Below the pieces are notes generated by a model. It saw only the letters and a list, made by a program, of their open reading frames with translations, had not been told where the DNA came from and did not search any database. This document shows positions 551-41,572 of a DNA stretch of 44,499 nt, piece after piece. Within the stretch, counting starts at the first letter, position 1. Each line of letters opens with the position of its first letter. The stretch covers positions 1 through 44,499 of the forward strand of contig NIVC01004485.1 in NCBI GenBank assembly GCA_002269645.1. The letters run 5' to 3'. Made by a program: the position numbers and the translations under genes. This DNA comes from Macrostomum lignano (Eukaryota).

Positions 551-3500
551 ATGGAACAAAGACTGACCCCAGATCAGATTCGACAACTTCTTGCAAACGA
601 GCGCGAACAGTTCAATCGATTACAAAGACAGGTTGAACAAATTGAACAGCGCCAAAGACAGCACCGTCGGCAAAGAGCAAGACAAAGACAAAGAGAGAGA
701 CAAAGAGAAAGAGAAATACAAGAACAACAAATAAAAGCATTAGCAAATGATATAAGGGCAGAATATGAAATGAAACGATTAATAGAAAAGGCCGAATATG
801 AAAAAAGAATAGCAGAGCTAGAAAAAAATCAAAAGAAAACCCAACGTCGGAAAACAAACATTAAATCGTCTGAACAACCACTAGAAGAATTTATTCGAGT
901 ATATAGGTTTGAACCAATGCAGAATGTCTTAGACTTTATTGAAACACAACTTTCAAACGGATATAGTGTTGAAATTACTAACGCGAGAGTACAATATTTT
1001 TATAACAAAACCGGCGATGATCGGGAAGAAATTAATCAATACTTAGCAACATTTTATAATATAAGTCAGTTTCAAGCTTGGTTTAAACATTTGGTAGAAA
1101 ACTATGATATGAATCTAAGCGTGTTTTCTGGAAGACTTAAAATGACACCAAACGTCATTACGATTAAACACGAAAGGTCAAAGCAAGGTATGGGCACAAA
1201 CGTCATGTGTGAAATTGCAGAGTATCAGGATGAGTATTGTTTCATACCTAGTGATGGTAATTGCTTCTATAAGTGTGTTAAATTTATTTATGGTGATAAC
1301 ACACCGTCTAAAGAAGAATATGGCGCTTGGTTGTACAACTCAAGAACTCAAAGAGGCATAATGACAAATTCAAGAATTGGAAAATTCAATGAGCATTTTA
1401 ATTTGAACATAGGTTTATGTATAACCCTAATAATCGGGGAATAGAACCAAAGTCACAAAGAGGCATCCACCACGATTGGTTATTAATAAATTACTACCAC
1501 GCAGCTGATTATCATATTGGACATTATTGCCTCATATCCAATAAACAACGAGGAATTGGTCTTGATTGGATAAAAGAGAATTATAAAGTAGTATTTAAAA
1601 ACCCAAAATCGGATAGTGTGCAAGAGATAAAAATGTTTAATACTCCGACAAATCCAAATAAATCAAACGTATACATATTTGATTTTGAAACATATTTAAA
1701 CGATAATCAACAAGCATGTCCGTATGCTGTTGGTCTTTTAAACTATAATGACTTTTCTAATAATTGTAACGAAAGCCCAGAGTCGATAAAGAAATTAACT
1801 AAGATCTTGATTTCAGATCGCGGATGTGATTTCAAAACAGACGGAACAAAAACGGACTGCGTTAGAAAAATGTTTAAATACCTTGGTTCAGTTAAGTCAA
1901 AAAAGATTGTTTTGATCGCCCATAACTCATCCCGCTTTGATTCTTATATACCACTATTTTGCAACATAAAACCAATTAAAATTCTTAAAACCCCCAGAGG
2001 AATATTATCAATAACTTTTGTTAATGATTATATGTCAAAAGAGGTATCAGCGTTTATAAACAAAGATAAAAAGAAGAAACATAAGGATTCAAAACAAACC
2101 ATTACGATGCTTTGTTCATATCAACACGCCTCAATGAGTTTAAAAAAGTTTTGTTCGTCAATGACAATTAGAGAGGATTTGCGCAAGACATCAATGGTGC
2201 ATGACATTACTGAGGACGATTATCTAGAACGGATTGATGAATGGTATGAATATTTACAATTTGATCTTATTTCTTTGTGTGCTTGTATTCATAAGTATAA
2301 CGAAATCGCATATGCAATTGGAGGCATGACAATGTTTGATACTCTTACATGTTCAAGTTTAACATTAAAATGTTGGTTTAAAGATTTTGTTAGAGTGGAA
2401 GACAAAATGAAAGAATACCTAAAGACAAAAGAAAAAACCAACTATATTAAGAAAGTCGAACAAATAATTTCTCCATTGAAAATAGAAGATTATTTTGACT
2501 TGTCTAAGCTTGAAAAAACGAAATATCAAACATTATTAAGAAAAGAATTTTCTGTTTACTCTCATATTGACCCCTATATAAGAAGATTTATGCGGGAGGC
2601 AGTCAAAGGAGGCAGAGTATTTGCACTAATAAATAAATACGAAAGCGAATGTTTTCAAACAATTGTAGACGTTGTAAAAGACCACTTAAAAACACCAACA
2701 GCCGACCCATGCGAGGTTATATCAACTTATCTCAAAAGCGATATGGAAGAAAAAAAGAAAATTGCAATTAAATTAAAAAACGAATTGGGTACTGTATCTG
2801 ATTGTTTAATGAACTTTGATGGGGTGTCATTGTACCCATCCGCCATGTCTGATAAAGATAGTGAATACCCAAGAGCAGAAAGTGGTAGGGTGTTTGATAT
2901 AAGCGAGGAAAAATATTTTTTGTCACAGTTTAATTCCCAAACGTTTCGACCAAAAACAGCGATTTTAAAGATTATGTATGAAAATCCTAACACCGTTTTT
3001 CTTCAGCATCTCCCATCTAAGGACAAAGAGAAATTTTATAATCCGGAGACAAAAGCAAACGAAACAAAAACATTAAATAGGTTCAGAAACGGAAAGGTAA
3101 TCGACACCCTTTGCTCGGTAGACATACAAGAAATCGTAAGAATGGGTGGTAAAATATTAAAGATATATAGTGGAATTGTATATGAGAAAAATTACGATTT
3201 CTCTCCGTTTCAGAATTATATTACAAATCTTTTTGAAATGAGAAAAAATGAGAAAAGTATTTAAAAAAGAAAATAATGAGGCGGGTTCTGAATTGATAAA
3301 AACACTATTAAATTCATTATATGGTAAAACAGTTCAAAGAGACATTACTTTCACAACACATCTCTGGAATTTGAATACATTAAAAAATGAATACGACGAC
3401 ACAATCAAGTCATATGAGAAAATATGTGACGACTTATTTTATGTAGAAAAAAAGAAAGACACGCAAGAATATATAGAAGACGACGACAATCCAACAACCG

Positions 3501-4144
3501 GACTTTGTTCTGCTCAATTAGGCATATTTATTTTAGCTCATTCAAGAAGAATTATGAATAATTTTATCACATCAATCGACGGATCAAAGAATCCAGAAAT
3601 TTATTACGGAGACACCGATTCATTATATATACATAAAAAACATTGGGATACATTAAATAAAAATGGGCACGTCGGAAATAATTTAAGTCAAGGAAAAAAC
3701 GATTATGGAGAGGGCGGAATTATATTCGGATATTTTATCGCTCCTAAAATTAAATATTGTCTTTTGTTGAAAGACGGTTTTATATTGGAAGAGAAAAAAA
3801 CATTTAAAGGTTGTGCAAACGATAGGGTTAATTTTGCATCGTTTAAAACTTTATATGATGGTCAATCAATAAAAGTAAATAATAACGCCCCATGGAAACG
3901 ATCGTTTGAAGGTGGTATAACAATTGGTCAAGGTTTTATATCAAAAACATATACACCATCAATTAATACTTATAAAAGAGAAAAACCGGATAAAAAAGGA
4001 ATTATGAAACCATTCTTTAAAAATTATTTTGATGACAAACCGGAACATGAACATACAATTGAATATTATAACAGCTTACTTTTTGATGTTGATTATAATT
4101 GTTTTGAGTTTGATATTGATGAACTAGCACTTATAAAAAACTAA
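551..4144 (+). pseudogene. polB: Protein-primed family B DNA polymerase (pPolB) with N-terminal coiled-coil/terminal-protein region and OTU-like protease domain, split into three ORFs (551-1444, 1417-3264, 3248-4144)
   Basis: ExoI YIFDFETY, ExoII AHNSSRFDSY, ExoIII YLQFD, (R)EAVKGGRV, motif A FDGVSLYPSAM, motif B KTLLNSLYGK, motif C YGDTDSLYI, APKIKY. Breaks: a -1 shift near 1415 and a tandem 10-bp duplication AATGAGAAAA (3237-3246/3247-3256). Repaired length is about 1190 aa. Confidence 0.97.
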
Positions 4145-4410: not shown

Positions 4411-4520
4411 TCACTATATTTCTGTTCGTTAATTATATTTAATTTTTTATTAATATCATTCATTTCTTTATTGTGAGTGCACAGAAGGTTTTTTACGCTC
4501 GCCATTTTCTTATAAAAAAT

Positions 4521-4844: not shown

Positions 4845-4870
4845 TTTTATTCTAAAAAAATAATAAAATA

Positions 4871-5411
4871 ATGAAACACAGATATGAATGTAATAAATGT
4901 AATATTACTATGCAAAGAGGACAAACAGCAAATTGAGATATATATCACATGTGTTATTCATGCGCTAAGATATATCAATTTGAAAAAAACAAAAAAGATT
5001 GAAAACTCATATTACTATTTCAAAAACACAATTATAAGAAATTTATCATGTGACATTTCACACCCATCCCTTCAAATGCCAGACGGCACACAAATTAATG
5101 CCATCCCCGGAAATAATGTTTATTTATATAATAACTTTTTTCATTTAAATAAAGGAAAAGGATTAAGTTCGAAAGACTCCGAGAGGATTTTAACTCTGGT
5201 TGGATATTATTTCAATTTTCTTATGAGAGAGAACACAAAACATATAAGGATCAGAAATATCCCAAGTGAAATGTTATTGAAAAAGTCATTGGTATTTTTA
5301 TGTATTGATAAAAAATTTGAACCTCGAATCAAAAGGCAATTACCATTGTGGGAAGAATATATAACTTATGTATTAAAAAAGTTACTGATGGGTCTACATA
5401 GAATTTCTTAA
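4871..5411 (+). CDS. Hypothetical viral protein, possibly with an N-terminal CxxC...CxxC zinc ribbon (disrupted)
   Basis: The track ORF is 4884-5411. An alternative frame from ATG 4871 reads MKHRYECNKCNITMQRGQTAN*DIYHMCYSCAKIYQFEKNKK and could join the main frame at the A-run near 4985-4997. Confidence 0.45.
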
Positions 5412-5425
5412 ACTCTCTAAATTAA

Positions 5426-5740
5426 TTATTTCCACACTTTTAATACTAAATGGAGCACCATATAAAACAAATTCTTCTTGCATATATTGTGGCAGGTTTT
5501 TTGGGGAATACCAACCAACCCCCTAACATAATTTTTAATAATATATACACCAAAAAAGTAGCATGGATAAGAACCATCCAACATCTGCGTATATATATTT
5601 ATACCATCTACCGAAGCCATTTTAAAAAGGATTTTATCCTCTACATTTAATTCTTCTTTCGTTACGTAAAAGGTTACATCTTTGGTAGACGGGCAGGAGT
5701 TCGCATCCAAAATAACTTTATGTATTATTCCTTGATCCAT
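5426..5740 (-). CDS. Hypothetical viral protein (104 aa)
   Basis: Intact ORF with CTAAAAAATG start context; no recognised motif. Confidence 0.55.
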   Translation of the reverse strand: MDQGIIHKVILDANSCPSTKDVTFYVTKEELNVEDKILFKMASVDGINIYTQMLDGSYPCYFFGVYIIKNYVRGLVGIPQKTCHNICKKNLFYMVLHLVLKVWK

Positions 5741-5764
5741 TTTTTAGAATATATTTTTAATAAA

Positions 5765-6447
5765 TTACACAACCTGAAGTTCTATCGTGCTACCTGACCG
5801 TGGGCTTTGTACACCATCAGCTATAACCTCAGGCTGGTACTCCATCGTTCCGAAGGAACGCGGACTTTGTCCGATCGTTTCTATAGGTGGAGGGTTCGGT
5901 TTGTCAAGTCTTAATTCTTTCAATTCCATATCGGTAAAAGCTTCAATATCTAAAATTCGATTTCTATCTTTTAAATATTTATCATATAACTCAACCGCGG
6001 TTGTTAACTCATATATTGTAATCTCTCCATCATCTAATATTTTTTGCACATATAAATATAACTGATTTTTATATTGTTTAGCAACATCTCTTAGTGATTT
6101 ATATTTATCCTTTCTTTTTTAAGATATAGTTTAATTGCCAAAAGAATTGATAAGTTTCTTATTAATTCAAAACCTGATATTGAACCAATTGAAATACCTA
6201 AAAATAATTGAGATAAATTAATAGTTGGAATCGATTGCAAAATACCCAAAACGATTACACATAACATTGATAAACTTCCAAAACCAATATTGAAAAAATC
6301 CATATTCCTGATATGGTTTGAAAGCTTTCTTAATTTTTTATTATATAAATCATAATCATAATTTATTCGATCGACATTACTTAACATGCGTCCTTTACGT
6401 TGGTTAAATAGATCGCGCTCTTTTCTGTCCGCTTCAGACACCGACAT
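5765..6447 (-). pseudogene. Two-transmembrane-helix Polinton accessory protein, frameshifted (track ORFs 6091-6447 and 5765-6049 joined)
   Basis: Hydrophobic pair FFNIGFGSLSMLCVIVLGIL / LFLGISIGSISGFELIRNLSILLAI. The downstream ORF's frame is open upstream (KDKYKSLRDVAKQYKNQLYLYVQKILDDGEIT) as far as the A-run near 6110-6120. Confidence 0.6.
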
Positions 6448-6763
6448 TTTTGTCTATTTTTAATAACACCAAAATGAATTCCCCACGCTCCTTAGGAATC
6501 TGTCCAGCGCTCAATAAGTATTGGATTGGAGTTATTCTTTCTTTTTTCTCCCATTTAAATCCAATCTTCCAAAACTCTTGTAATATAATATGGTTTTTTA
6601 ATAATTTAATTAACTCCTGAAGTTTCTTATTGTCTTGAACATTCACTCCGCTAAATAAAATTTTGGTATGAGATCTAAAAGTTTTTATATTTGATTCTTG
6701 TTTAGGAATCGGAATAATAATATTATTACCTTGCCGCATTGATGGAGTTCTGCTAAAAGCCAT
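6434..6763 (-). CDS. Hypothetical viral protein (109 aa)
   Basis: Intact ORF with TATAAAATG start context; overlaps the start of the next gene. Confidence 0.6.
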   Translation of the reverse strand: MAFSRTPSMRQGNNIIIPIPKQESNIKTFRSHTKILFSGVNVQDNKKLQELIKLLKNHIILQEFWKIGFKWEKKERITPIQYLLSAGQIPKERGEFILVLLKIDKNVGV

Positions 6764-6813
6764 TTTATATAGAAATATTTTAGACTAACTTATCGCCCCG
6801 TAGGGTCGCAGCT

Positions 6814-8807
6814 TTAGCTGATAGCTACCGGCGGCCTTTCCAAATAAGGAGTAGATGGAAAAGTATAACCAAATGATGTACTACCACAAACTATTGCTCC
6901 ACGAATAAAATGCGCCGCATCCGCTCCTCCGGTTCGAGCACCAAACCCCATAAGCGTTCCGGATTTATCTAGATCTCCCCAAGTGCCACTATCATACGTA
7001 AAAACATTTTGCCCAATTAGTGTCAAAGAATCTCCAGCAACATTGTATGAGCTTAACTGATACCAAACTCTTTGATTAAGAATATTAATTTCAAAAAGAT
7101 GCCAATTGCCATTATCAATATTGGCATAGGTTACAGTTTGGTCGGCGTCATTTAGAACGTCATTGCGGACGGTTGCTCCGTCAGCTTTTTTATTACTCCA
7201 AAGCAAGCCGAATCTGTCATGCCATTCACTAGCAAACACTATTAAGCCGGCGTCGGTTGTTAAATCAGATCCATATTCCGTTGTTGGTCGTTGGTGGCAG
7301 TAAGCATAAAACCAAACGGCGTCTGCACCAGCTCCACCACCCGCAGCATTAGCAACTCGGAAATAGAAGGAGACAGAAACATTACGGAAATGGGTGAAAT
7401 TAAATTGTAACGCTCCATTGAGTCCAGCGCATTCGTCAGTAATTCTTGCGCCGTTTTGATAATCAATATAAATCGCATTTCCAACCATAGACCCAGTTGG
7501 AAAAATATCGCCAGCAGTTGTTGGGTTTTGATAGCCATTCCAATTACATATTACTGGCTCATATAAAGCGGCATCAATTGCCGGAATACCATCCAATTTA
7601 ATTTTATCATTAAAAGACATTCTACCGTCCGCCGTTTGTGTTACAACCGTATCGACATAACCTTTAGTCACAACAGATGTGTTATCGTTTATAGTAGATA
7701 TATTAGTAATTGTATTACCACCCATATCAATAGACTGATTTACTGCTCCTAAATTCAAATCAATAACGGTAAAAGTCTGCCTGTAAATCTGAAATGTTGA
7801 TAAGCCTGGATTGGTTGAACCCGATGTTGATGTAAGACAAAACAATTTGAAATATGAATATTCTTTATCAAAATTTTGTGTGACATTAAATGTTTGGGTT
7901 GAATTATTTAACTCCGCCGAACTCGCCGCCGGAATCAAAACATCATAACTTGTATTGTCATTACTTCCTTCAAATCGCCATGAAGCAGGGTGCTCGGTTG
8001 AGGGCGACGGTCTACCACGCAAATCAATTTTATAACACATTATCGCGGATGGACATTGGACTTGAATCCAGTAATCTGTTTGTGTTGCATTAGTTGCCCA
8101 ATCCGTTGCGTCGTCCCCATCAAAAGCTTTCCAACTTGCAAAGCTGGTTGTATTAAATGCCGAGCTTGCTGTGATCGCAAAACCGTTTCCACTCCAAGCA
8201 GCCATTGTTGGTACATGACCGGTTTGAACGGTTTGGAACCTATCTTGTTTTGGGGTTCCGCTCCCGACTATATTATCAACCTCGGTTTTGGTATAAGAAT
8301 CCGCGACATTTCGTTTCAAATTTAAGGAGTTATCTATTTGAGTTTGACTATAGGAATCGCTTATATCTCTTTTTAAATTTAACGAATTATCAACCTCGGT
8401 TTTGGTATAAGAATCGGTTATATCTCTTTTTAAATTTAATGAATTATCAATTTCCGTTTTGGTATATGAATCTGCCACATTCCGTTTTAAATTAAGTTCG
8501 AAATCAACTTCGGCTTGACTATAAGAATCTAATATATTACGTTTTAAATTTAATGAATTATCTATTTCCGTCTTGCTATATGAATCCGCAGTATTGCGTT
8601 TTAAATTTAATGAATTATCGATTTGAGTTTTGGTATAGGAATCTGCAACATTCCGTTTTAAATTTAATTTAGTATCGATTTCACTTTTTTATAACCTTCG
8701 TCTTTATTTATATATCGGTTGTCTCCAAATGTAACACTTATTCCACTCGATTCTCCGCCGCCAGTTCTTGAAGTTCCGTTCCATGAGGGTGTTCCACTAA
8801 ATAACAT
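6814..8807 (-). CDS. Putative receptor-binding fibre/spike: 19-aa repeat shaft, discoidin (F5/8 type C)-like domain, stalk motif and C-terminal ConA/L-type-lectin-like domain; one frameshift near 8685
   Basis: The likely start is ATG at 8807 (MLFSGTPSW...), with one A lost in the run at ~8685-8690. Then come 8 x DSYTKTEIDNSLNLKRN repeats; WKAFDGDDATDW...YWIQVQ...WRFEGSND (discoidin-like); MGGNTITNI...TKGYVD (fibre stalk motif); and GADAVWF...WHLFEI...GFGARTGGADAAHFI (legume-lectin-like). Confidence 0.75.
8270..8700 (-). repeat. 57-bp coding tandem repeat (about 8 copies) encoding the fibre shaft
   Basis: The units ADSYTKTEIDNSLNLKRDI / TDSYTKTEVDNSLNLKRDI / SDSYSQTQIDNSLNLKRNV etc. differ largely by synonymous or conservative changes. 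Confidence 0.9.
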
Positions 8808-8830
8808 TTTTAGAGTCCATTTTTACCATA

Positions 8831-9263
8831 TTAAAATGAATCCAATATGTTTTTAAAATCCTCTGGAGTTTCTTTCGAGTTACGAATTTTATATAAAAAA
8901 TACAACGCCGCCTGTCCACAATAACTTTTATCAAAGGTTTGAAACTGTTCGTGATAATCTCCACATAATCGATTTTTAGTATTTAAATTTGTCTTTTATT
9001 TCATGCAACGGGGGTAGGCCAAATGAATCAAAAAAATAAACGAGTTTGGGTTTTGAATAAACTGCTGACCAATGTACACCATTTTCTTTGGTTGTTTCAA
9101 TATTGACAATGAAAGATCCATATCGTGGTAAGTCTTTTATCTCATCGCGCATAACACATCTGAATGGTTTTATTTTTAATTGCCGCGCCCAGTTTGTCAA
9201 TTCAATATTACTTGTTGTGTCCGTTCCATATCTTTGTTTGAACTGATTCCAACTCATAGTCAT
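8831..9263 (-). pseudogene. Adenain-like (adenovirus-type) cysteine maturation protease, frameshifted near 8980
   Basis: Catalytic His in NGVHWSAVY and Asp in YFFDSFG (track ORF 8976-9263). The missing Gln/Cys part lies in the next frame: RLCGDYHEQFQTFDKSYCGQAALYFL...ILDSF* (stop 8831-8833). Confidence 0.9.
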
Positions 9264-9264
9264 T

Positions 9265-9474
9265 TTATGTTCCTGAAAAACTCTTTGTTTTTGTTAGTTT
9301 CTCGGACAAAGTCCGCGACACTACGTGGCGACTATCCGCGGGTTTTAATAGTTCCTGTCTTGTTTTTTCGGCTTGTAGATGTTTCAATTTTGTTAATTCG
9401 ATTTCATAATTATCTTTTGCTTTTTGAACTTTTACCATTTGATTTTTTATCATACCTTCGGTACTATTACCCAT
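9265..9474 (-). CDS. Small coiled-coil hypothetical protein (69 aa)
   Basis: Intact ORF packed between penton and protease, with CTAAAAATG start; its stop TAA forms part of the protease start motif. Confidence 0.6.
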   Translation of the reverse strand: MGNSTEGMIKNQMVKVQKAKDNYEIELTKLKHLQAEKTRQELLKPADSRHVVSRTLSEKLTKTKSFSGT

Positions 9475-9484
9475 TTTTAGAATA

Positions 9485-10270
9485 TTAAACCTGTTTTATT
9501 CTTAAAATTATTGTTATTGCTTGTCCGCCAAAACTAATAAGTCGATCCGAATCATCTACAACTCTTATATAAATTGATTGTAAATTATATTGATTTAGTG
9601 GATAATAAATTGGGGTTTGAGGTGCAACTATCATTTTATCCCCAATTGGCACAGCTAAAAATGGAATTGAATAAATAATTCCGCGCTGAACCAAGAATCC
9701 GTTATCATCTGTTATATAACCACCATTTGAAATATCGGTTGTAATATTAATTGTGTTGACTCCGCCTTCAATATTTCCCACGGTATCGCCCGTGGTTGAT
9801 GTGGTAACGATTCGGGAATTAAATCCTAATATGGTTCTAAGTGAATTGGCAATTGTAAAATCAACCTGATATCCGGCTGCTAACGTAAGTGTGAATCTGC
9901 CTGATGGTAAATCAACTCCTATAACAATCGCGTCTGCTACCCAATCACCATTATCTGTTAACTCAGCTTGTATTACGGTATTCAAATCAGTATAGTTATA
10001 TGCGCCCGGTGTTATAGTAATGGTTGTCCAATTTGCTCCTGAATCTTTAGAATATCTAAATTGATTATTTGTTGCATTAATCAATTGAGGCATGTTAAAA
10101 ACTGAAAACATTATTAAACCAATTTCATAACTTAATGTCTGATCAAGAGTTAGTGGGTTACGTAATTGAATCCTTTGCTCGCTGCTTGTCATTACAAATT
10201 GTAAAGTCGTACTAAATCTTGCGTTGGTTCTATCAACCACTTGTTTTATTGTATCGAGGTTCACTGCCAT
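9485..10270 (-). CDS. Minor capsid protein (penton, single jelly-roll)
   Basis: Likely start MAVNLD at 10270. Beta-rich, with the Polinton penton pattern NATNNQFRY...ITITPGAY...LGF...IYIRVVDDSDRLISFGGQAITIILRIK. Confidence 0.85.
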   Translation of the reverse strand: MAVNLDTIKQVVDRTNARFSTTLQFVMTSSEQRIQLRNPLTLDQTLSYEIGLIMFSVFNMPQLINATNNQFRYSKDSGANWTTITITPGAYNYTDLNTVIQAELTDNGDWVADAIVIGVDLPSGRFTLTLAAGYQVDFTIANSLRTILGFNSRIVTTSTTGDTVGNIEGGVNTINITTDISNGGYITDDNGFLVQRGIIYSIPFLAVPIGDKMIVAPQTPIYYPLNQYNLQSIYIRVVDDSDRLISFGGQAITIILRIKQV

Positions 10271-10304
10271 TTTTATAGTGTGAATTAGTACCAAAGTCCG
10301 ACCA

Positions 10305-10779
10305 TTACTCCTCGTCCTCTTCCTCTTCCTCTTCCTCGTGTATCAAATTTTGTAAGATTCTATTTCTCCTTTCTAACCTAGTGTTGATATAAATATGTTT
10401 GTATTGGTTGTCATCCCAAATTTTTTTACACATGCTTTTGAATGGTTTTGGATCTAAACCAGGGTTAAATCTCACGTGTATATTTTTTAAATCATAGTTA
10501 TCTAGATCAAACATTACACAACAGCTAGCATTCTTTTTTATAATTGAATCTAATTCTCTAAAGGATTGAGTAAGATAAAATGCCCCAATTCCATCTCCTC
10601 TGCCGCTAACAAAAATTTCTTTTTGCAACTCTTGATCACCATCATAAATACAATCATCAAATACAATTAATGTTTTATCGTCTTTTGGGATTTTATCATA
10701 GGTTAATCTGTTTGATATTTGGATCGTTGGGGAGTTGTTGTCGACGTTTTCTGGATTCTGCGCAGTTTCTCTACATAAA
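10305..10779 (-). pseudogene. A32/FtsK-like genome-packaging ATPase, C-terminal part
   Basis: Reads LCRETAQ...KTLIVFDDC (Walker B)...SGRGDGIGAFYLTQS (A32 motif C) and ends in an acidic tail. Joins 15993-16288 in frame once the retrotransposon is removed. Confidence 0.93.
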
Positions 10780-10783
10780 CCCT

Positions 10784-10957
10784 TATGGGTATTTTGTTGT
10801 ACTTTTTATTTGCAACTCAGTTTGTCATAAATTACCATAGACTAATTTCCTTTTACAGTTCTTTCTCGCAGTTAAGTTTCTCGCCCCAAGCCCTCTCGTC
10901 TTTAACTCATAAAATATATTGCAATTCGAATCTAAGTCAAGTTGTAGTTTCACTACA
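10784..10957 (+). repeat. 5' LTR (174 bp)
   Basis: TATGGGTATT...TTTCACTACA; matches 15819-15992. It starts TA rather than the canonical TG. Confidence 0.95.
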
Positions 10958-10960
10958 AAT

Positions 10961-10976
10961 TGGTCCGGTGAGGCGG
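10961..10976 (+). promoter_or_regulatory. Primer-binding site
   Basis: TGGTCCGGTGAGGCGG lies 3 nt after the LTR. TGG-T-CC fits a tRNA with an A discriminator and a C1:G72 pair (tRNA-Tyr-like), but the primer identity is uncertain. Confidence 0.65.
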
Positions 10977-11022
10977 CGAAAGATATTACTCGCATACTCA
11001 ATACTCACAGAAGACAAATCCA

Positions 11023-11928
11023 ATGACGGACAGTGCAAGCAACAATTCCGCTCCTACACCACCTACAACCACGCAAGCCGCACCAAGTTCGGCCGCACCA
11101 GTGGTTACAACTGCAGTAGGAAACGCCGCCGACACCGCTATAGTCTCCCTGGCCCACCTGAAGCTGCCAATCTTCTATCGCAACAACCCGGAAGCATGGT
11201 TCCTCACGCTGGAGGCCCAGTTTATGCTCAACAGGGTGACCAACGAGACCGCCAAATTTTACCACCTAGTCTCTCATCTACCGGAGGATATCGCGGCTCT
11301 GCACTTGTCCGCTCAGACTCCAAAACAGTACGAACAACTGAAATCAGCGATTACATCGACTCTGCAAAAGTCCAAGCAGGAGAAGGTTTCGGAAGTATTG
11401 CAAGTCTCGGACCTCGGAGGAGACAAGCCATCAATCTTCATGCGCAAACTCCGGAGCAAGATGGAGCAGTGCCAGATACAGCCCGACGAGGATCTCCTCA
11501 AGGCCACTCTGATGCGCTGTCTTCCACAGGACCTTCGTATCGCACTGTCGGGATTCCAACAGCAGTCATCCCAGCAAATTTCCGAGATTGCTGACTCGAT
11601 GTTGGTCGTCAGAGGCCTTAGCTCTCCACCGCCAGCGACAGTTTGCCCAATTCAGCAGGCCGGTGCAGATCGGACACCCCAACAGCGCTTTGAGCAAGCT
11701 CCACACCGACAAGCACCTGGTAAGCCCACTGGAACAGACCCATTTAAGCCTGGCCAACGCCCCGTCGTTTGCCGCTCACACCTCTACTATGGCCGCCGTG
11801 CTCGGTCGTGTCGCCCCTGGTGCCAGTTTCCCAAGGACAGCTCGCGTCTGATCCGAGTGCTGCATCCCAATGAAAAAACGCCATCTCAGTCGCGTTCATC
11901 ATCACCTTCTCGACAGCCGGAAAACTAA
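11023..11928 (+). CDS. gag: Gag (301 aa)
   Basis: [16 protein letters not shown]-terminal motif and C-terminal [18 protein letters not shown] (CHCC) motif. Confidence 0.93.
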
Positions 11929-14900
11929 ATCGCACTGCGACCGAGGTCGCGGTGCGCAGTGCCGAGATACCATCGACCACCTGTTTGGAGTTAGATGTTA
12001 AAATCAACAATACCTACAGCAAGTTTCTTGTGGATACCGGAGCCTCGGTTTCCATTGTTCCACCTCACCTCGTTAACGCACTCGTTCAAGATACAAACGT
12101 TCGTTTAATTACTGCTACCGGAGCCGCCATACCAGTTCGCGGGTCGGTCCTACTGGATGTCTCAATCCGCGGTTTGCGTCGCGCCTTCCAGTGGACCTTC
12201 CTCGTGGCGTCAGTGGTGAAACCCATAATTGGTTACGATTTCTTGGCTCACCATGGGTTAGTTGTCGATTGTCAGCGCAAACACGTTCGAGACTCAGAAA
12301 CAGGACTGTCTACTGTTACCTTGTCAATTTCAAATGTTCATTGTGGCCCATTCACTGTGTCGGTAGAACTGCCACCCAACCTGGATTCTCGGACGAGTAC
12401 GCTGTTGACAAAGTTTGCAGATTGTTTTTCTTTCGTTGAAGGCGGAGCCCTTCCGCCAGCTTCAGAGGTCAAGCATGACACTGTTCACCGGCTAGACACT
12501 GGTAGTGGACAACCAATTCACTTGCGACCCCGGCAACTGCACCCTGCAAAACTACAGGCTGCAAAGCAGGAGTTTCAGCAGCTAATCGATGCTGGCTACC
12601 TCAGACCTTCCTCAAGCGCTTGGGCGTCACCCCTCCACATGGCACCCAAGGGAGCTGGCTGGCGTCCGTGCGGTGACTATCGCGAATTGAACAAACGAAC
12701 AAAGCCGGACAACTATCCGGTTCCACACATTCAAACATTCACTCGGTACCTACACGGAAGCACTGTGTTTTCAAAGTTAGACCTTGTTCGCGCCTTTCAT
12801 CAAATTCCAGTCGCCGAAGAGGATATTTGCAAAACCGCTATCACCACACCGTTTGGATTGTTCGAGTACACACGCATGCCCTTCGGCCTGAGGAATGCAG
12901 CACAAACATTTCAACGCTTCATCGACTCTGTTTTTCACGGACTGTCATTCGTCATCTCTTACATCGATGATGTCCTGATATTCTCAAAGACTCGTGAGGA
13001 CCACTACTCGCATTTGGAACAAGTTTTGGACCGCCTAAGAACACACGGCCTACAGGTTCATTTGAAGAAGTGCGAATTCTTTCAGTCCGAGGTAGATTTC
13101 CTTGGCCATCGCGTGACTCCTGAAGGAATAAAACCTCTCCAGAAGAAGATCCAAATAATCACTGACTGGCCGACACCCACGGATTCGAATGCACTTCGGC
13201 GCTTCCTCGGTGTCGTCGGTTTCTACCGTCGATTCGTTCCCAACTTTGCCGACTGCATCTGTCCGCTGCAAGACCTACTCACTGCATCACTACAGTCAGC
13301 AGGAAACTTCCAATGGACAGAGCAGCATCAGAAATCTTTCGAAAACATCAAACAAGCTCTCTCAGAGAGACTACTGCTGCATCATCCGGACCCCAACTGT
13401 ACTGCGTACCACCTGTACACTGATGCCTCAGCCGACTGTGTTGGTGCCGTTCTGCATCAAACCTCTTCAACCGGAACGTCACCTCTTGGCATGTTCAGCA
13501 AGAAGTTGTCGTCATCTCAAAGGATGTACAGCACGTTCGACCGAGAACTACTCGCGGCGTACCTGGCAGTGTTGCACTTCCGCAGCCTCATTGAAGGACT
13601 GAGCGTGACCTTGTTCACCGATCATAAACCACTAGCTCAGGCCTTCCACGCCAATCGCACCACTACGTCAGATCGCAATCAGCGCTACTTGACCGTCTTG
13701 TCCGAGTACGTGGCAGATGTCCAGTACATTCGCGGTGCAGACAACGTAATAGCTGATGCCCTTTCTCGACTGCCTGACTTCCCAGTGAATGATCACGTGT
13801 CCAACATCGCAACAGTCGCTGTAGTCGCTGCCCCATCAAGCCAATTCCCTGTTGATCTGCCCAGTATCGCTGAAGCACAACGACCGGAGTCGTTCTCAGC
13901 TGCACCAAATATTCGATCGTATTCTCTGGACAAAGACGTCGTCGTTTGGTGTGAGACGTCAACGCCGTATCCTCGCCCGATCATTCCGCCATCCCTCCGC
14001 GACGCCGTGATTGCTTCCTTCCATCGACTTGGTCATTTCGGCTACCGTAAAACAGCAAAACTCATCACAGAACGTTACTTTTGGCCCGGAATGCGCAAGT
14101 CCATCAAGACCTACTGCTGGAACTGCCAGGACTGCCAACGGAGTAAAGTCACTCGCCACACTGTCTCCCCGCAACAGGCCTTCGCATTACCATCAAATCG
14201 CTTTGAGGCGGTACACATCGATATTGTGGGACCACTTCCACCAGCTAATGCTACCACCTTTGGCCACCAGTCTGCTCGCTACCTTCTCACGATGGTCGAC
14301 CGCTCGACTGGCTGGCTAGAAGCTACACCACTGGAATCAATAACCGCGGAAGTAGTCGCCCATGCATTCGTCTCGTCTTGGGTCTCGCGCTACGGAGTGC
14401 CACTGTATGTAATCACTGATCGGGGGCGCCAGTTCGAATCAGAATTCTTTCACTCGGTCTCGTCATCAATTGGTTTTCATCGATTACGCACAACGGCCTA
14501 CCACCCTCAAACCAATGGCAGGGTCGAGCGAGCCCATCGCACCCTGAAGACGATGCTACGTGCTCGAGGCAATGACTGGCTGACAGACCTACCTGTGGCT
14601 CTCCTCGCGATGCACGTCGCACCTGACGACCAAGGAATATCACCGTTCACCAGGGTTACGGGCGAGCTTCCGATGGTTCCGCGCATTCTAACTTCTGAAC
14701 CACTCGCCCCAACGGACATTCGGACACGGCTGCAGGAACTGCTGACAGAGTTACCGAGTCCACACGCGAAGACGCACGAACCACGGAGCTACGTACCCAA
14801 GGACCTGGAAATGGCTGAATTCGTCTGGGTTCGGGTCGATCGCGTGCGGTCGCCGCTCGAGGCGCCGTACTCAGGGCCGTATCGCGTGAAACAGCGAACT

Positions 14901-15068
14901 GACAAGTTCTTCGTTATTTTCCTACCGTCAGGCAACACCGAATCTGTCTCTATCGATCGCCTCAAGCCGGCGCGACTTTCGCTTCCGAAGTCGGCTGTTC
15001 AAGTCGGCTGGCAGGGTCGAGCGAGCCCATCGCACCCTGAAGACGATGCTACGTGCTCGAGGCAATGA
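11919..15068 (+). CDS. pol: Pol polyprotein (protease, RT, RNase H, integrase), probably reached by a -1 frameshift; C-terminus altered by an internal duplication
   Basis: [10 protein letters not shown]; RT YIDDVLI; RH YTDAS...DRELLA...TDHKPL; IN zinc finger H-H-C-C, HIDIVG / ITDRGRQFE / VERAHR, and GPY motif. The frame is open from 11919 ([14 protein letters not shown]...). Confidence 0.96.
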
Positions 15069-15494
15069 CTGGCTGACAGACCTACCTGTGGCTCTCCTCG
15101 CGATGCACGTCGCACCTGACGACCAAGGAATATCACCGTTCACCAGGGTTACGGGCGAGCTTCCGATGGTTCCGCGCATTCTAACTTCTGAACCACTCGC
15201 CCCAACGGACATTCGGACACGGCTGCAGGAACTGCTGACAGAGTTACCGAGTCCACACGCGAAGACGCACGAACCACGGAGCTACGTACCCAAGGACCTG
15301 GAAATGGCTGAATTCGTCTGGGTTCGGGTCGATCGCGTGCGGTCGCCGCTCGAGGCGCCGTACTCAGGGCCGTATCGCGTGAAACAGCGAACTGACAAGT
15401 TCTTCGTTATTTTCCTACCGTCAGGCAACACCGAATCTGTCTCTATCGATCGCCTCAAGCCGGCGCGACTTTCGCTTCCGAAGTCGGCTGTTCA
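14516..15494 (+). repeat. Tandem duplication (493-bp period) of the integrase 3' region
   Basis: 14516-15001 is repeated at 15009-15494 with a 7-bp linker AGTCGGC. Track ORF 15046-15624 is the second copy plus the original C-terminal tail. Confidence 0.93.
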
Positions 15495-15804
15495 GCCGGC
15501 CGCGAACTCGCTGCCGGAAAAAGCCGCCAAACCAAAGGAACCGGTGGACTCATCACCTCCTAGAGCGACCTCTAGCGGCCGCCGAGTCCAATTCCGACGC
15601 CATAATGATTACATTTATTATTAACCTTGTAATGTATAACGTCTACTGACTGCTGTTCCAATGTTCTCAATATTTCTCAATGTTCAACCCTTCATATAAA
15701 ATTTAGCTCGTATTTCAACTGTATAACCGCTTCGTTTCAATAATTTAAGCCATTCCACCATTTTATAATTCAGTTACAGTCTCTTTTCCCCGTGCTCCGC
15801 AATT

Positions 15805-15815
15805 GGAGGGGGGAG
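15805..15815 (+). promoter_or_regulatory. Polypurine tract
   Basis: GGAGGGGGGAG just upstream of the 3' LTR. Confidence 0.85.
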
Positions 15816-15818
15816 TCG

Positions 15819-15992
15819 TATGGGTATTTTGTTGTACTTTTTATTTGCAACTCAGTTTGTCATAAATTACCATAGACTAATTTCCTTTTACAGTTCTTTC
15901 TCGCAGTTAAGTTTCTCGCCCCAAGCCCTCTCGTCTTTAACTCATAAAATATATTGCAATTCGAATCTAAGTCAAGTTGTAGTTTCACTACA
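15819..15992 (+). repeat. 3' LTR (174 bp)
   Basis: Appears identical to 10784-10957; followed by the TSD CCCT. Confidence 0.95.
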
Positions 15993-16288
15993 CCCTCAAT
16001 GTCAGAAAGTTTGAATTTTGGTTCATCGTCGTCCTCATATTGCTCATATGCTCTTAACATTCTAAATAAAATATCTTTTTTTAGTTTGTTTTTTAATCCA
16101 TGTTTAAGAAATTCATAATATTTTATTCTAGGTCTATTTGTATATATTATTAAATTATTATAATCTAACATTCCATTGGTTGTTAATAAATCATAAACAA
16201 AGTGTGTTTTTCCTTTACCTGATCCTCCAACAACTAAACAAAGAAAAGGGTCGTTGGGAAATATTTTATTATGTTTTGGCTTTACCAT
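15993..16288 (-). pseudogene. A32/FtsK-like packaging ATPase, N-terminal part
   Basis: Walker A CLVVGGSGKGKT. Excising the retrotransposon and one CCCT restores LSDIEG|LCRET and a 256-aa ORF. Confidence 0.93.
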
Positions 16289-16308
16289 TTTTTAAGGAAA
16301 TAAATTAA

Positions 16309-17790
16309 CTAACTTTTTCCTATGGGGGCGTCCTGAACAACGGTGCCGTCGGCTTTAGCAATCGCCATATACTCCTCTAGAAACAATGCGTGGGCGTCTA
16401 CTGCCTGATTTCCAGTTTTATTAATCTCCAACATATAATTCAAACCAATATTTGCTACATTTGCTTTCTGTGCGGTTAGATCAAAAACAACCACGGGGTG
16501 AATGTTTAGAAACTCTGTGGGAGTATATTGAGGAATGGCGTAGGCTTCGTTTTTGACGTAATCCTGATAATATTTTATAAAATCATTAACATCATTATTT
16601 CCAACATTTAGATTAAGGGGGTTTTTAACAGGATAATATTGATCATCAACCTGCAGTCGGATGTTCTGAAGATTAAATGTGTTAATCGCCGAAAGCGCGT
16701 TGTCACTTGCGGTGGCTGCTTGAGCTGCTACATCACCAGATTGAAGCCAATATAAATCACCGTTTCCTCTTTTGCTAGTTCTGTTTGGTATTTTAAACCA
16801 AATAAAAATATACCTCACCCGACGTTTTGTTTGTATGATTTGCCACTGGAATGAATCCTGATTGTTATTAATGGTTCGCATAAAGTGGCGGCGATTCAAA
16901 TAAAATATATCCTGGTCTAACATTATCTGATCATCAATATGTTTTAAAAGCGGAGCAGTTACCTCGATAGTTGGCACAACTAATTTAATCGAAACAATTC
17001 GAACTGCAATATCGGTTGAGGTTGAACTTCCAAAAAGTATCCTGGGCTGATATCCACCAGATATTTGCAGTTGTACCCCAAATTTTAATCCCTTCCATAC
17101 CCGATTTGGTGAGAAAAACCCAAATAGTGGAAAGATTGAAAAGTCTTCCTCATAAGCGGTTGCTGTGGTTAAAACCGCGACTGGGAATTTATTCCGACGG
17201 TCTATAAAACCAGTGTTTATATTTTTGGTGTTGGTTAGATCCGTTACAACCGGAACTATATTATTATTTAAATAATTAATAAGAGCTGCGGTGTCTGCGC
17301 CAGCTGCTGGTGTTATTTGGGGAAAAATCCATGGTCTACCATCTCCCTTATCAGGCATCCATCCAACGTTATCACCAACCTGTTTTGATAAATATGTATA
17401 ATTTAAATGTTTCAAAACTCCATTAATCTCTGCTGGGTTTGTAGCCGTCTCAACCTCGGCTCCGTTAATGGTTAGTTGTGCTTGGGAAAAACATTTATAA
17501 AACCAATCATTTTCTATAATAATGCCAGCGCGATCAGCGATATCGGGGGCTGTAAGGGCTGTTCCATCGTTTCTGGTATACAACCACCTAACTCGGAAAA
17601 ACGCATTTTTCATATCCAATATGCTGCTGGTTGCACCAATGTCAAAAGTTACTGTTCCCGTTGTAAAGTTATTTGAATTATCGCTTGTTGGTTGGGTGTA
17701 ATTTAAATCTCTTGATCTGACCTCATTGATATACTGTCGTTGTTTTTTGAAATGAAATTTATCACTCCAAATGGTTTTTGTCTCGGCCAT
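16309..17790 (-). CDS. Major capsid protein (double jelly-roll, Polinton PY/hexon-like), 493 aa, intact
   Basis: Size, beta-rich pattern (VTFDI...LDMKNAFFRVR...ENDWFYKCFSQAQLTINGAEVE...) and position beside the ATPase and penton. Confidence 0.88.
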   Translation of the reverse strand: MAETKTIWSDKFHFKKQRQYINEVRSRDLNYTQPTSDNSNNFTTGTVTFDIGATSSILDMKNAFFRVRWLYTRNDGTALTAPDIADRAGIIIENDWFYKCFSQAQLTINGAEVETATNPAEINGVLKHLNYTYLSKQVGDNVGWMPDKGDGRPWIFPQITPAAGADTAALINYLNNNIVPVVTDLTNTKNINTGFIDRRNKFPVAVLTTATAYEEDFSIFPLFGFFSPNRVWKGLKFGVQLQISGGYQPRILFGSSTSTDIAVRIVSIKLVVPTIEVTAPLLKHIDDQIMLDQDIFYLNRRHFMRTINNNQDSFQWQIIQTKRRVRYIFIWFKIPNRTSKRGNGDLYWLQSGDVAAQAATASDNALSAINTFNLQNIRLQVDDQYYPVKNPLNLNVGNNDVNDFIKYYQDYVKNEAYAIPQYTPTEFLNIHPVVVFDLTAQKANVANIGLNYMLEINKTGNQAVDAHALFLEEYMAIAKADGTVVQDAPIGKS

Positions 17791-17824
17791 TTTTATAGGT
17801 TAAAAAAGTTTTTTATGTTAAAAA

Positions 17825-19085: not shown

Positions 19086-20648
19086 AGGTGGCTTGTTGGA
19101 TGTTCAAAAAGGATTAACAAGCTTACCAAGCGTTTTTACTAGTGGGAAGTATACAAATGAATTACACATTCCAGGGTACTCGTTTGCAGGTTATCCGTGG
19201 CCTGAGTGAGGAAGTCAATGTCCTTGCTAGTCACTATTAGTGGCGACATCTTCAAATTGCGTGAAACCCGTCATACAGCTTCAAGTCCACTTCAATTGAG
19301 AAATCTTTTGAAGGAACAGAGGTAACTCCTCTTCCCAAAGGTAACAAGCTTGAAGACAAGGTGGCAATGCGCAGCCAAGCTCCTAAGTCCGTCCGGTGGC
19401 CGATATGGAGAAGGTTCAGAGAGCAGACGGAGATGGGTGGTAATTTAGCCGTTTAAGGTGTGCTCCAGCCTCTATCGAAAGATTGGGGGTAAACTACCCG
19501 GGACAAGATTGGATTTGAGATTAAATCCAGATGGAACTCCAAAAGCAGATTCAATTTCCATTAACGGAATTGATTGGTTAGCATATTATCATGACTTAGC
19601 ATACAGAGATGCTGATAAGAACTCTCCTGAGGAAGCATTAAGATTAAAGCATGAAGCCGATAGAAAAATGATTGAAGGATTAGATAATCTGCAAGAATTG
19701 TCGGTTGGCCAAAGATTAACTCGGTGGATGGTTAAAAAGATTTTGCAGTCTAAAGTTAAATTTGGTTTGGGAATTAATTATAATCAACATGGAAATAATT
19801 GTGTTGAGTGTTTGCTATTAAGTGGTGGTGGGTTAAGTTCTGATGAGGCAAAGATTCTTCACAAAGAATACCGAAAACCGAAATTTTACAGAAAGATCAT
19901 GAACTTTAAAAAGAATGAAATTTGGTATGCTGATTTAATGGCTATGCCGTCCGATCGGGGATATAAATATATTTTAACTATATTAGATGGTTTTACTCGA
20001 TATGCGTGGGCTGTTCCTTTGAAGTCCAAAAAAGGAGACGAGGTTGCTTCTGCTTTTAGAAGTATTGGAGAAAAAAGTGAACGTTTATGTGTTGATGAAG
20101 GAAAGGAATTTTATAATCCACATATGTATAAATTATATCATTTTGAAAAAGGAAAAGAAAGGAAAAAGGACGCTAATGGGGAGTATATTAATAAGATTTA
20201 TTCTATTTATGGCGAAAGCAAAAACGCTTTAATAGAAAGATTTAATCGAACTTTAGGTAAGAAATTGTGGTTTGAGTTTAGGCTTAATGGTAACCAAAAA
20301 TGGGTAAAGATATTATTAGACGTAGTGAAAGATTATAATAATTCATTTCATTCGGCTATAAATATGACTCCGCAACAAGCTTATAACAATCCTGAAAAAG
20401 TTAAAGTTACTTTTGGAGAATTTGAAAAAAAGAAAAATAAACCTTTTAAAGTTGGTGATTCTGTTTATATCTATAAATGGAAAGATAAGTTTGAAAAGGG
20501 AAGAAAAGGATATTAGAAAATAAGTGAGAAATTTTCTGTTAGTAAAGTTTTAAATACAAATCCTACAACCTATATCATTGCTGATAAAGATGGTGAAGAA
20601 ATATTGGGTTCGTTTTATGAAAGCCAATTACTTAAGGCAACAAGGTAG
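19036..20648 (+). pseudogene. Parvovirus-type phospholipase A2 domain fused to a Polinton RVE (DDE) integrase; split by a 305-bp insertion and a TAG
   Basis: ATG 19036 gives ...ELHIPGYSFAG|PGTRLDLRL...YYHDLAY...HEAD (PLA2 Ca-loop and HD). Integrase motifs WYADL, LCVDEGKEF, IERFNRTL. The TAG at 20514-20516 sits at a conserved Trp and the frame continues KISEKF...PTTYII.D..GEEILGSFYESQLLK to 20648. Repaired length is about 435 aa. Confidence 0.92.
19191..19495. other. Unclassified 305-bp insertion
   Basis: More GC-rich than its flanks; splits the Gly codon of FAG|PGT; removing it restores the frame. No TSD or TIR evident. Confidence 0.8.

Positions 20649-41473: not shown

Positions 41474-41572
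<99 letters not shown>

What the first reader, a model, noticed from the sequence alone, without database searches (positions are those of the whole stretch)
6814..8807. Phage-tail-like fibre with tandem discoidin and L-type-lectin heads in an animal polintovirus
Seen: an N-terminal anchor, 8 x 19-aa YTKTE(I/V)DN repeats, a discoidin/F5-8C-like domain, a MGGNTITN...TKGYVD stalk motif and a C-terminal ConA-like domain. Known: YxKxExD repeats and the stalk motif occur in phage and protist-virus fibres, and both head folds commonly bind glycans. Inferred: a modular trimeric receptor-binding protein for extracellular spread via host glycans, with repeat number setting fibre length. Such fibres are poorly described for animal Polintons.
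Basis: partly seen in the sequence, partly recalled or inferred. Interest (0 to 1): 0.7.

Follow-up and report, generated by a model that had tools for sequence, protein, structure and literature searches.

The report
Sugar-binding fibre of animal Polinton virus
A virus-like element (Polinton) in what is probably an invertebrate genome carries a gene, broken in this copy, for a three-stranded, phage-style fibre with two sugar-binding-type domains; it is the best candidate for how such particles would attach to their host, although similar fibres are already known from related viruses of single-celled eukaryotes.

Summary
The domain anatomy is real, but the gene is broken in this copy. A 624-codon frame (8688-6814, minus strand) holds seven intact 19-residue repeats, an F5/8C (discoidin) domain, a phage-fibre stalk and a C-terminal head. 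The 39-codon start piece lies in another frame (break near 8690). The head folds as an L-type lectin (Z 21.9 to ERGIC-53). Three copies of stalk plus head are predicted to trimerise through the stalk (0.77 against best control 0.00). All four modules have their closest labelled relatives in phage, prokaryote or protist proteins; a jumbo-phage-like contig has the same linker and head (34%). The gene lies directly downstream of the protease-like and minor-capsid-like genes of a decayed Polinton with many sister copies. Glycan binding, presence on the virion, head swapping and repeat-number variation are not shown. Mix-and-match fibres with phage repeats, discoidin and ConA-like domains are described for protist Polinton-like viruses, and 'Fiber' is labelled on animal adintovirus maps. 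Verdict: a new variant of a known kind, of moderate interest.

The parts
8691..8807 (-). N-terminal piece of the fibre gene (39 codons), low-complexity and Gly/Ser-rich; presumed capsid anchor; in another frame from the rest
   Evidence: The ATG lies in a CTAAAAATG context like other genes of the element. No Pfam hit and only a PHROG hit at E 0.22. No hydrophobic signal stretch. The anchor role is inference.
8685..8690 (-). Frame break at a six-base A/T run
   Evidence: Contigs in 3 of the 4 runs laid differ from the window at this place (table 4), so the break need not be shared by the family.
8269..8688 (-). Shaft: 7 intact 19-residue YxKxE(I/V)D repeats plus a partial unit at the break
   Evidence: Sequence match to PDB 8hqz_d 'L-shaped tail fiber assembly', E 2e-7, and to phrog_10305 tail fiber, E 1.5e-7.
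7783..8235 (-). F5/8 type C (discoidin, galactose-binding-like) domain, residues about 152-302
   Evidence: Pfam PF00754 above cut-off; phrog_17517 tail protein, E 4e-19; 37-38% to both F5/8C domains of P0002, which also has a Pfam phage-fibre repeat.
7579..7770 (-). Stalk (MGGNTITN...TKGYVD, then GRMSFNDKIKLDGI); predicted trimer interface
   Evidence: phrog_6907 E 4e-6 and three tail-fibre PHROGs E 1e-4 to 4e-3. All named trimer contacts lie in these 64 residues.
6814..7578 (-). C-terminal L-type (legume-fold) lectin head, residues about 371-606, short tail and stop codon
   Evidence: AF2 model pTM 0.74; Foldseek E 3e-11 to ERGIC-53; VIA-align Z 21.9, rmsd 3.3 A over 214 residues; GADA and GFGARTGG motifs align to the archaeal legume lectin 7elv.
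8835..9293 (-). Context: maturation-protease-like gene, frame-broken near 8975
   Evidence: Frames; no Pfam hit; named from a recalled adenain-type motif and its position.
9485..10270 (-). Context: probable minor capsid (penton) gene, 261 aa
   Evidence: no significant Pfam or PHROG hit; assigned by size and position only.
10305..16291 (-). Context: packaging ATPase in two pieces (15860-16288 and 10305-10805), split by an LTR retrotransposon at 10784-15992
   Evidence: Pox_A32 E 0.005 and 0.014, both under cut-off; identical 174-nt LTRs; RT, RNase H and integrase domains.
16309..17790 (-). Context: probable major capsid protein gene, 493 aa
   Evidence: no significant family hit; assigned by size and position only.
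1417..4144 (+). [quoted passage not shown]
   Evidence: DNA_pol_B_2 E 2.5e-7, above cut-off; break.
19449..20642 (+). Context: PLA2-like stretch followed by rve integrase, with an internal stop near 20514
   Evidence: rve E 1e-6, under cut-off; Phospholip_A2_4 E 0.024, under cut-off; stop.

Best explanation
In intact members of this Polinton family the gene encodes a homotrimeric fibre on the particle surface. Proposed steps: (1) a short N-terminal segment docks on the capsid, most likely at the penton vertex (inferred); (2) the 19-residue repeats form a thin shaft as in phage tail fibres (sequence kinship shown, structure inferred); (3) each chain carries a discoidin domain, the three chains then join in a phage-type stalk (trimer predicted), and each ends in an L-type lectin head (fold shown by model); (4) six sugar-binding-type domains per fibre attach the particle, by avidity, to glycans on host cells or mucus before uptake (inferred). 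The fibre is a mosaic of modules from the pool shared by phages, prokaryotes and protist viruses, not a capture of the host's ERGIC-53 (likely, not proved). The copy in this window is decayed and cannot make the full protein.
For: Position and strand: directly downstream of the protease-like and penton-like genes. No signal or membrane stretch (maximum 19-residue hydropathy 0.97). Repeats match a phage lateral tail fibre (8HQZ is the DT57C baseplate and LtfA is trimeric in its N-terminal part, PMC10713586 passages). Among repeats, codon position 2 is 88% alike and position 3 is 60%, as expected under protein-level constraint. Trimer: score 0.77, best of 3 controls 0.00; the mark was reached by 21 of 30 proteins solved as pairs and 0 of 23 solved as single chains; runs agree in at least 68% of contacts, partner pLDDT at least 68; named contacts lie only in the stalk. 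Head fold. Pocket-type residues among 42 head domains: Asp456 in 41, Glu488 in 42, aromatic 489 in 41, Gly587 in 41. The same linker plus head is in a gene of a 321-kb IMG/VR contig (34% over 255 columns), beside a head-decoration/virion-protein gene; a more distant head is in a gene behind a tape-measure gene. Sister copies at 85-99% cover the gene in all 4 runs laid.
Against: No binding, expression or particle data. The trimer job held three copies, unlike the two-copy calibration; the alignment was not used; the stalk resembles phage fibre stalks, so the pass may come from memory; counts on eukaryotic proteins are weaker (17 of 29; animals 7 of 16). The repeat shaft and the discoidin domain were not modelled (one search failed, pLDDT 29), and the matched repeats lie outside the N-terminal part of LtfA that was reconstructed. 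The position taken as ERGIC-53 Asn156 is Asp here (Asp in 21 of 42, Asn in 0 of 42), and the acidic metal-ligand position before it is Ser (25 of 42), so the pocket is altered and may not bind sugar in the usual way (the mapping is inferred). The two closest heads (P0046, P0047) have no known context. The capsid genes were assigned by position only. The tree held no eukaryotic L-type lectin.
Confidence: 0.65

Rival explanations
1. A capsid decoration fibre that is not needed for entry: it sits on facets or vertices and holds particles in mucus or on surfaces, or stabilises them, while another protein does the receptor binding.
For: The jumbo-phage-like gene with the same linker and head lies beside a gene whose best family is 'head decoration' (phrog_2647, E 6e-52). 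Passages read say that some adintoviruses have no discernible capsid-surface (Cah) gene (bioRxiv 2024.03.25.586562), so such parts can be optional.
Against: A long repeat shaft with terminal heads, next to the penton-like gene, is the layout of vertex fibres (established knowledge of adenovirus and PRD1; PMC12220804 passage). The labelled PHROG hits of repeats and stalk at E < 0.005 are tail-fibre families.
Confidence: 0.17
2. The fibre binds a third party, not the animal: the glycosylated surface of a large helper virus, or bacteria or algae that the animal eats. It could also be a relic from a protist-infecting ancestor.
For: All module relatives that carry a label are from phages, prokaryotes or a protist (7 of 44 hits are Streblomastix strix; Patescibacteria; loci L001-L016). 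A virophage whose tail proteins bind Synechococcus lipopolysaccharide is listed in PMC12724248 (search listing only).
Against: The element has its own polymerase and integrase and many copies in one organism's runs. No helper virus was seen. Module origin does not set the ligand.
Confidence: 0.12
3. Not a virion protein: a cargo gene built around a captured host L-type lectin (ERGIC-53/VIP36 type) that acts inside or outside host cells.
For: The best structural matches are ERGIC-53 and VIP36.
Against: Identity to ERGIC-53 is only 15-17%, while phage and prokaryote heads reach 30-39%. No signal or membrane anchor. Phage-type shaft and stalk. The head clade nests among proteins whose labelled members are prokaryotic or phage-like (support 0.99).
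Confidence: 0.06

Closest known systems
Bacteriophage-like modular fibres of protist Polinton-like viruses (PMC12220804, passages read)
   Same: Mix-and-match proteins with phage tail repeats, laminin G/ConA-like domains and discoidin (F5/8C) domains, proposed as homotrimers on the penton. One Cyanophora element has phage tail repeats fused to an H-type lectin.
   Different: There, discoidin occurs alone, in pairs or fused to patatin, and many fibres end in a Peptidase_S74 chaperone. No repeat + discoidin + stalk + L-type lectin chain is named in the passages read. Hosts are protists. No S74 domain here.
Tetraselmis Polinton-like viruses (TsV group; bioRxiv 2025.10.09.676808, passages read)
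   Same: A tail-fibre gene and an FA58C (discoidin) gene are conserved in the capsid module.
   Different: They are two separate genes; algal host; no L-type lectin head mentioned in the passages.
Alpha adintoviruses (PMC8502044; sections 7, 8, 10 and the text of Suppl. Fig. S2 read)
   Same: Animal-integrated elements with pPolB, rve integrase, FtsK-type ATPase, protease, penton, hexon and a PLA2-like gene. A 'Fiber' label stands among the gene labels of Fig. S2; 'Fiber' and 'Lectin' (galactose-binding) are defined in the Fig. 5 legend.
   Different: The paper gives no domain anatomy of the fibre. Here the PLA2-like stretch lies upstream of the integrase in one frame; OTU domain and hexon class were not tested.
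Lateral tail fibre LtfA of T5-like phage DT57C (PDB 8HQZ; PMC10713586 passages)
   Same: YxKxEVD-type repeats (E 2e-7 over 65 residues); trimeric fibre used for host-surface polysaccharide recognition.
   Different: Tailed phage; only the N-terminal part was reconstructed; no match to the heads.
L-type lectins: ERGIC-53/VIP36, legume lectins, Methanocaldococcus lectin 7elv/7exo (PMC3912170 passages)
   Same: Fold (Z 17.8-22); Asp in a GAD motif and Gly-Gly in the last loop.
   Different: 8-17% identity; Asn and metal-ligand positions appear changed; fused to a viral stalk.

Membership tests
Polinton / adintovirus | Protein-primed family B polymerase | tested here: met
   DNA_pol_B_2 30.4 bits against cut-off 25.8; gene frame-broken.
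Polinton / adintovirus | rve integrase | tested here: inconclusive
   E 1e-6 but 29.4 bits against cut-off 32.6; IS481/IS3 DDE hits; internal stop.
Polinton / adintovirus | A32/FtsK packaging ATPase | tested here: inconclusive
   Both pieces hit Pox_A32 under cut-off, E 0.005 and 0.014.
Polinton / adintovirus | Double jelly-roll major capsid and single jelly-roll penton | not tested
   No significant family hit; both fold jobs went to the fibre; assignment by size and gene order.
Polinton / adintovirus | Adenain-type maturation protease | tested here: inconclusive
   No Pfam hit for the 105-aa piece; motif recalled from memory; gene frame-broken.
Polinton / adintovirus | Terminal inverted repeats and target-site duplication | not testable with these tools
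   The left end lies outside the window and no genome is held; only a local palindrome at 21196-21440.
Alpha adintovirus | PLA2-like (PLA2X) gene; OTU domain on PolB; hexon recognisable by BLASTP | tested here: inconclusive
   Phospholip_A2_4 E 0.024, under cut-off; OTU and hexon class not tested.
F5/8 type C (discoidin) domain | Pfam PF00754 above gathering score | tested here: met
   40 bits against 28.2. Ligand not tested.
L-type (legume-fold) lectin | ConA-like beta-sandwich closest to L-type lectins | tested here: met
   Ranks 1-7 of 48,161 chains are L-type lectins, Z 17.8-21.9.
L-type (legume-fold) lectin | Sugar pocket (Asp, Asn, aromatic, Gly-Gly backbone) and Ca2+ ligands | tested here: inconclusive
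   Asp and Gly-Gly motifs align to 7elv and are conserved in 41 of 42 heads; the presumed Asn position is Asp, and no residue-level superposition was available.
L-type (legume-fold) lectin | Pfam Lectin_L-type_dom / Lectin_legB above cut-off | tested here: not met
   No Pfam family for the head; among its 38 relatives, only P0082 passes Lectin_L-type_dom.
Trimeric viral fibre | Homotrimer through a stalk | tested here: met
   Prediction only: 0.77 against best control 0.00; 21 of 30 solved pairs and 0 of 23 single chains reached the mark; may be from likeness to phage stalks.
Trimeric viral fibre | Trimeric repeat shaft; N-terminal docking on the penton; presence on particles | not tested
   The single complex job went to stalk plus head; no particle data.
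Pfam phage tail repeat families (PTR PF12789, Phage_fiber_rpt PF22337) | Profile match of the 19-residue repeats | tested here: not met
   Neither family is listed at E <= 1 for the repeat block; kinship rests on PDB and PHROG matches.

The most novel reading that the evidence does not exclude
An animal-integrated Polinton family acquired a complete phage-type receptor-binding fibre whose L-type lectin head, with its linker, came from the phage/prokaryote pool. It uses that fibre to enter animal cells through surface glycans and varies shaft length among copies. This would give a nameable attachment protein and a testable glycan receptor for a group of animal elements whose extracellular phase is mostly inferred.
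Probability: 0.35. Interest if true: 0.68.

Novelty: new variant of a known kind. Interest (0 to 1): 0.42.

Why it matters
Whether animal Polintons make infectious particles, and what they attach to, is largely open; for nematode Polintons a fusogen has been proposed and for oomycete Polintons a beta-helix fibre (bioRxiv 2023.08.22.554363 passages). A fibre with two soluble sugar-binding-type domains makes attachment directly testable by glycan array and tissue staining. It also points to exchange of attachment modules between bacterial viruses and a probable animal virus. The concept is not new: protist Polinton-like viruses already show such fibres, and this copy is dead.

Tried and rejected
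Single-sequence AlphaFold of discoidin + stalk + head failed (pLDDT 29) and was not used. No protein with the full architecture was found: 43 of 44 whole-protein hits overlap the repeats, and only P0002 showed a clear F5/8C match (lengths 343-1092, and only the 7999 best candidates scored). None of 38 head relatives shows F5/8C at E <= 0.001 (best 5 families shown per protein). The discoidin + stalk search scored 0 of 399 candidates (lengths 138-440). Longer or shorter length classes were not searched. Related elements with context were not found: viral contigs with fibre, MCP or penton gave 0 loci; metagenome contigs 0; the repeat DNA pattern 0. The 8 loci found through P0005 hold no match to the Polinton core genes, and those with recognisable genes look like tailed phages. 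GenBank phages gave 2 weak F5/8C hits. No whole genome is held. Head swapping among sister copies: no joint or loose end inside the heads among the rows shown, but 15 joints and 272 loose ends were not shown and contigs are short, so there is no verdict. Repeat-number variation: 5 of 6 listed joints inside the array have a net length that is a multiple of 57, but flanks are at most 56 letters, so misplacement of diverged units explains them equally well. The 12 listed substitutions inside the gene are mostly sites where the window differs from nearly all contigs, so they were not used for a selection test. Expression: no RNA holder listed; X12 is only guessed to be RNA. ESM Atlas: head 0.90 to a viral cluster with Lectin_leg-like in 38% of members; N-terminal half 0.90 to a 137-member F5/8C cluster labelled Preplasmiviricota from one record; both are leads only. 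P0082 found no PDB sequence match, and no paper on the Methanocaldococcus lectin was in the library. Earlier notes: nothing by sequence, place or the long word list; one search gave only phage fibres.

Full report
Observation. The minus strand has one open frame from 8688 to the stop at 6814, 624 codons (P0001). It begins inside the repeat array. The piece that starts at ATG 8807 is 39 codons long and lies in another frame; the break is at a six-base A/T run at 8685-8690. There are seven intact repeats at exact 19-residue spacing plus a partial unit at the break, and 3 of the 7 read exactly YTKTE(I/V)DN. The period is far beyond chance: lag-19 identity 0.67 against at most 0.21 in 2000 shuffles. 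Between units, codon position 2 is 88% alike and position 3 is 60%.

The four modules. Shaft: the repeats match chain 8hqz_d, 'L-shaped tail fiber assembly' (E 2e-7, the only PDB sequence match at E <= 1). 8HQZ is the baseplate of phage DT57C, whose LtfA is trimeric in the N-terminal part that was reconstructed (PMC10713586, passages). 43 of 44 whole-protein hits overlap the repeats, and 7 of the 44 are labelled Streblomastix strix, a protist reported to carry endogenous viruses (PMC10120064, passages). The Pfam phage-repeat families themselves were not hit. Middle domain: F5/8C above Pfam's cut-off, with phrog_17517 'tail protein' at E 4e-19. Stalk: 65 residues matching phrog_6907 and three tail-fibre families. 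Head: no family hit by sequence. With 25 relatives aligned (25 of the 38 hits), AlphaFold gave pTM 0.74. Ranks 1-7 among 48,161 chains are L-type lectins, led by ERGIC-53 at Z 21.9, rmsd 3.3 A over 214 residues, 15% identity (Foldseek agrees).

Is the pocket there? ERGIC-53 binds mannose through Asp121, Asn156, Phe154 and the backbone of Gly251-Leu253 (PMC3912170, passages). The profile of the head family aligns GADA to GADG, and GFGARTGG to GFTGGTGG, of the archaeal legume lectin 7elv. Among 42 head domains (44 candidates; 43 hit the profile; P0067 was dropped as too short), Asp456 is kept in 41, Glu488 in 42, an aromatic at 489 in 41 and Gly587 in 41. Against this, the position I take as Asn156 is Asp in 21 of 42 and Asn in none, and the acidic position before it is Ser in 25 of 42, including this protein. 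The mapping to ERGIC-53 numbers rests on motifs recalled from memory, not on a superposition. A conserved pocket is likely; its ligand and metal use are open.

Trimer. Three copies of stalk plus head scored 0.77, with the best of 3 controls at 0.00. The mark was reached by 21 of 30 proteins solved as pairs and 0 of 23 solved as single chains. Runs agree in at least 68% of contacts and partner pLDDT is at least 68. All named contacts lie in the 64 stalk residues; the heads are not named, which is uncertainty and not absence. The calibration used two copies, the alignment was not used, eukaryotic counts are weaker (17 of 29; animals 7 of 16), and phage stalks of this kind may be known to the model. 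The shaft and the discoidin domain were not modelled (one search failed).

Origin of the head. The closest heads are P0046 (57%) and P0047 (64%), from ENA assemblies with no context. The next most similar (30-39%) include two Patescibacteria proteins and P0057, which has an N-terminal tail-fibre PHROG match. A gene on a 321-kb IMG/VR contig (L004) has the same linker and head, 34% over 255 columns, beside a head-decoration/virion gene. A more distant head lies in a gene after a tape-measure gene (L005). In a midpoint-rooted FastTree tree, the window, P0046 and P0047 form a clade (1.0) inside a larger clade (0.99) whose labelled members are prokaryotic or phage-like; its immediate sister is unresolved (0.39). 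Most rows carry no taxon label and no eukaryotic L-type lectin was included, so the tree suggests but does not prove a phage/prokaryote source. The two heads are 42% G+C against 34% for the element, a weak hint of mosaic origin.

Context. The gene lies on the same strand as, and directly downstream of, a protease-like gene and a 261-aa probable penton gene; the ATPase and a 493-aa probable major capsid gene lie further upstream. pPolB passes Pfam's cut-off; the integrase, ATPase and PLA2-like hits are under cut-off; the capsid genes are assigned by size and order only. The copy is decayed: polymerase and protease are frame-broken, the integrase has an internal stop, and the ATPase is split by an LTR retrotransposon. 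The flank is 52% G+C and repeat-rich, with a weak Srw-type GPCR fragment (E 0.005, under cut-off), so an invertebrate host is likely but unproved. Ten runs of organism A, from 3 studies, hold at least half of the sampled words. In the 4 runs laid, 88-1117 contig pieces per run at 85-100% identity cover the fibre gene. Pieces identical to the window lie over 8114-8439 in 2 of 4 runs, and contigs in 3 of 4 runs differ from the window at the break. So this is a multicopy family, and the break need not be shared. Repeat-number variation is compatible with 5 of 6 listed joints but not shown; head swapping has no verdict.

Mechanism. Most likely (0.65) a trimeric particle fibre: N-terminal docking on the capsid (inferred), repeat shaft (kinship shown), discoidin domain (family shown), trimeric stalk (predicted), three L-type lectin heads (fold shown), and attachment to host surface or mucus glycans (inferred). 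Rivals: an optional decoration or mucus-retention fibre (0.17); a fibre for a helper virus or microbial carrier, or a relic (0.12); a non-virion cargo lectin of host origin (0.06).

Comparison with print. PMC12220804 (passages) describes modular fibres of protist Polinton-like viruses with phage tail repeats, laminin G/ConA-like and discoidin domains, and one with repeats fused to an H-type lectin. Tetraselmis elements keep a tail-fibre gene and a discoidin gene in the capsid module (bioRxiv 2025.10.09.676808, passages). The adintovirus paper (PMC8502044; passages, sections 7, 8 and 10, and the text layer of Suppl. Fig. S2) has a 'Fiber' label among animal adintovirus maps, and defines 'Fiber' and 'Lectin' in its Fig. 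5 legend, without anatomy; its slide supplements could not be read. bioRxiv 2024.03.25.586562 and 341131 (passages) discuss coiled-coil surface proteins, not lectin fibres. Searches for adintovirus + fiber (13 papers, 10 listed), polinton + fiber + discoidin (2), polinton + tail fiber + animal + receptor (5) and polintovirus + lectin (1) turned up no description of this architecture in an animal element. I read only some of those papers, and the library lacks most subscription journals. Three earlier AI notes on protist Polinton-like fibres agree that the kind is known; I did not test them.

Verdict. It is a new variant of a known kind. What is new, within these searches, is this four-module chain with an L-type lectin head of probable phage/prokaryote kinship in a multicopy element of a probable animal. 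Interest 0.42; 0.68 if host-glycan-mediated entry were shown.

Noticed in passing
window 10784-15992: Ty3/gypsy-like LTR retrotransposon with identical 174-nt LTRs inserted in the packaging ATPase gene; it carries an exact 493-bp tandem duplication at 14516-15494.
   Followed up: partly
window 9961-10023: Loose contig ends at 9961 (3 of 4 runs) and 10023 (2 of 4 runs) suggest that some sister copies have a different segment of about 60 nt inside the probable penton gene, possibly a variable surface loop (table 7).
   Followed up: no
window 5375-5913: Joints that skip 383-532 bases in all 4 runs suggest that the small ORF at 5426-5740 is absent or replaced in many sister copies (table 5).
   Followed up: no
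window 19090-19760: A G+C-richer, frame-broken stretch precedes a PLA2-like segment that runs in frame into the rve integrase ORF; it may be a decayed PLA2X-type gene or a true fusion.
   Followed up: partly
window 21196-21440: Long palindrome (arms of 53 and 25 nt) near the point where G+C rises from element-like to flank-like; candidate terminal or origin structure.
   Followed up: partly
window 551-17825: Most genes of the element start in a (T)AAAAATG context; T[AT]AAAAATG occurs 5 times in 16.0 kb of element and 0 times in 22.8 kb of flank, which differs in base composition.
   Followed up: partly
L004:9928-11553: A 321-kb viral contig has a short linker + L-type lectin gene next to a head-decoration-like gene; this head family (38 relatives) has no Pfam model of its own.
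   Followed up: partly
window 40968-41579: Fragment of a 7TM GPCR (Srw-like, E 0.005) in the repeat-rich flank.
   Followed up: no
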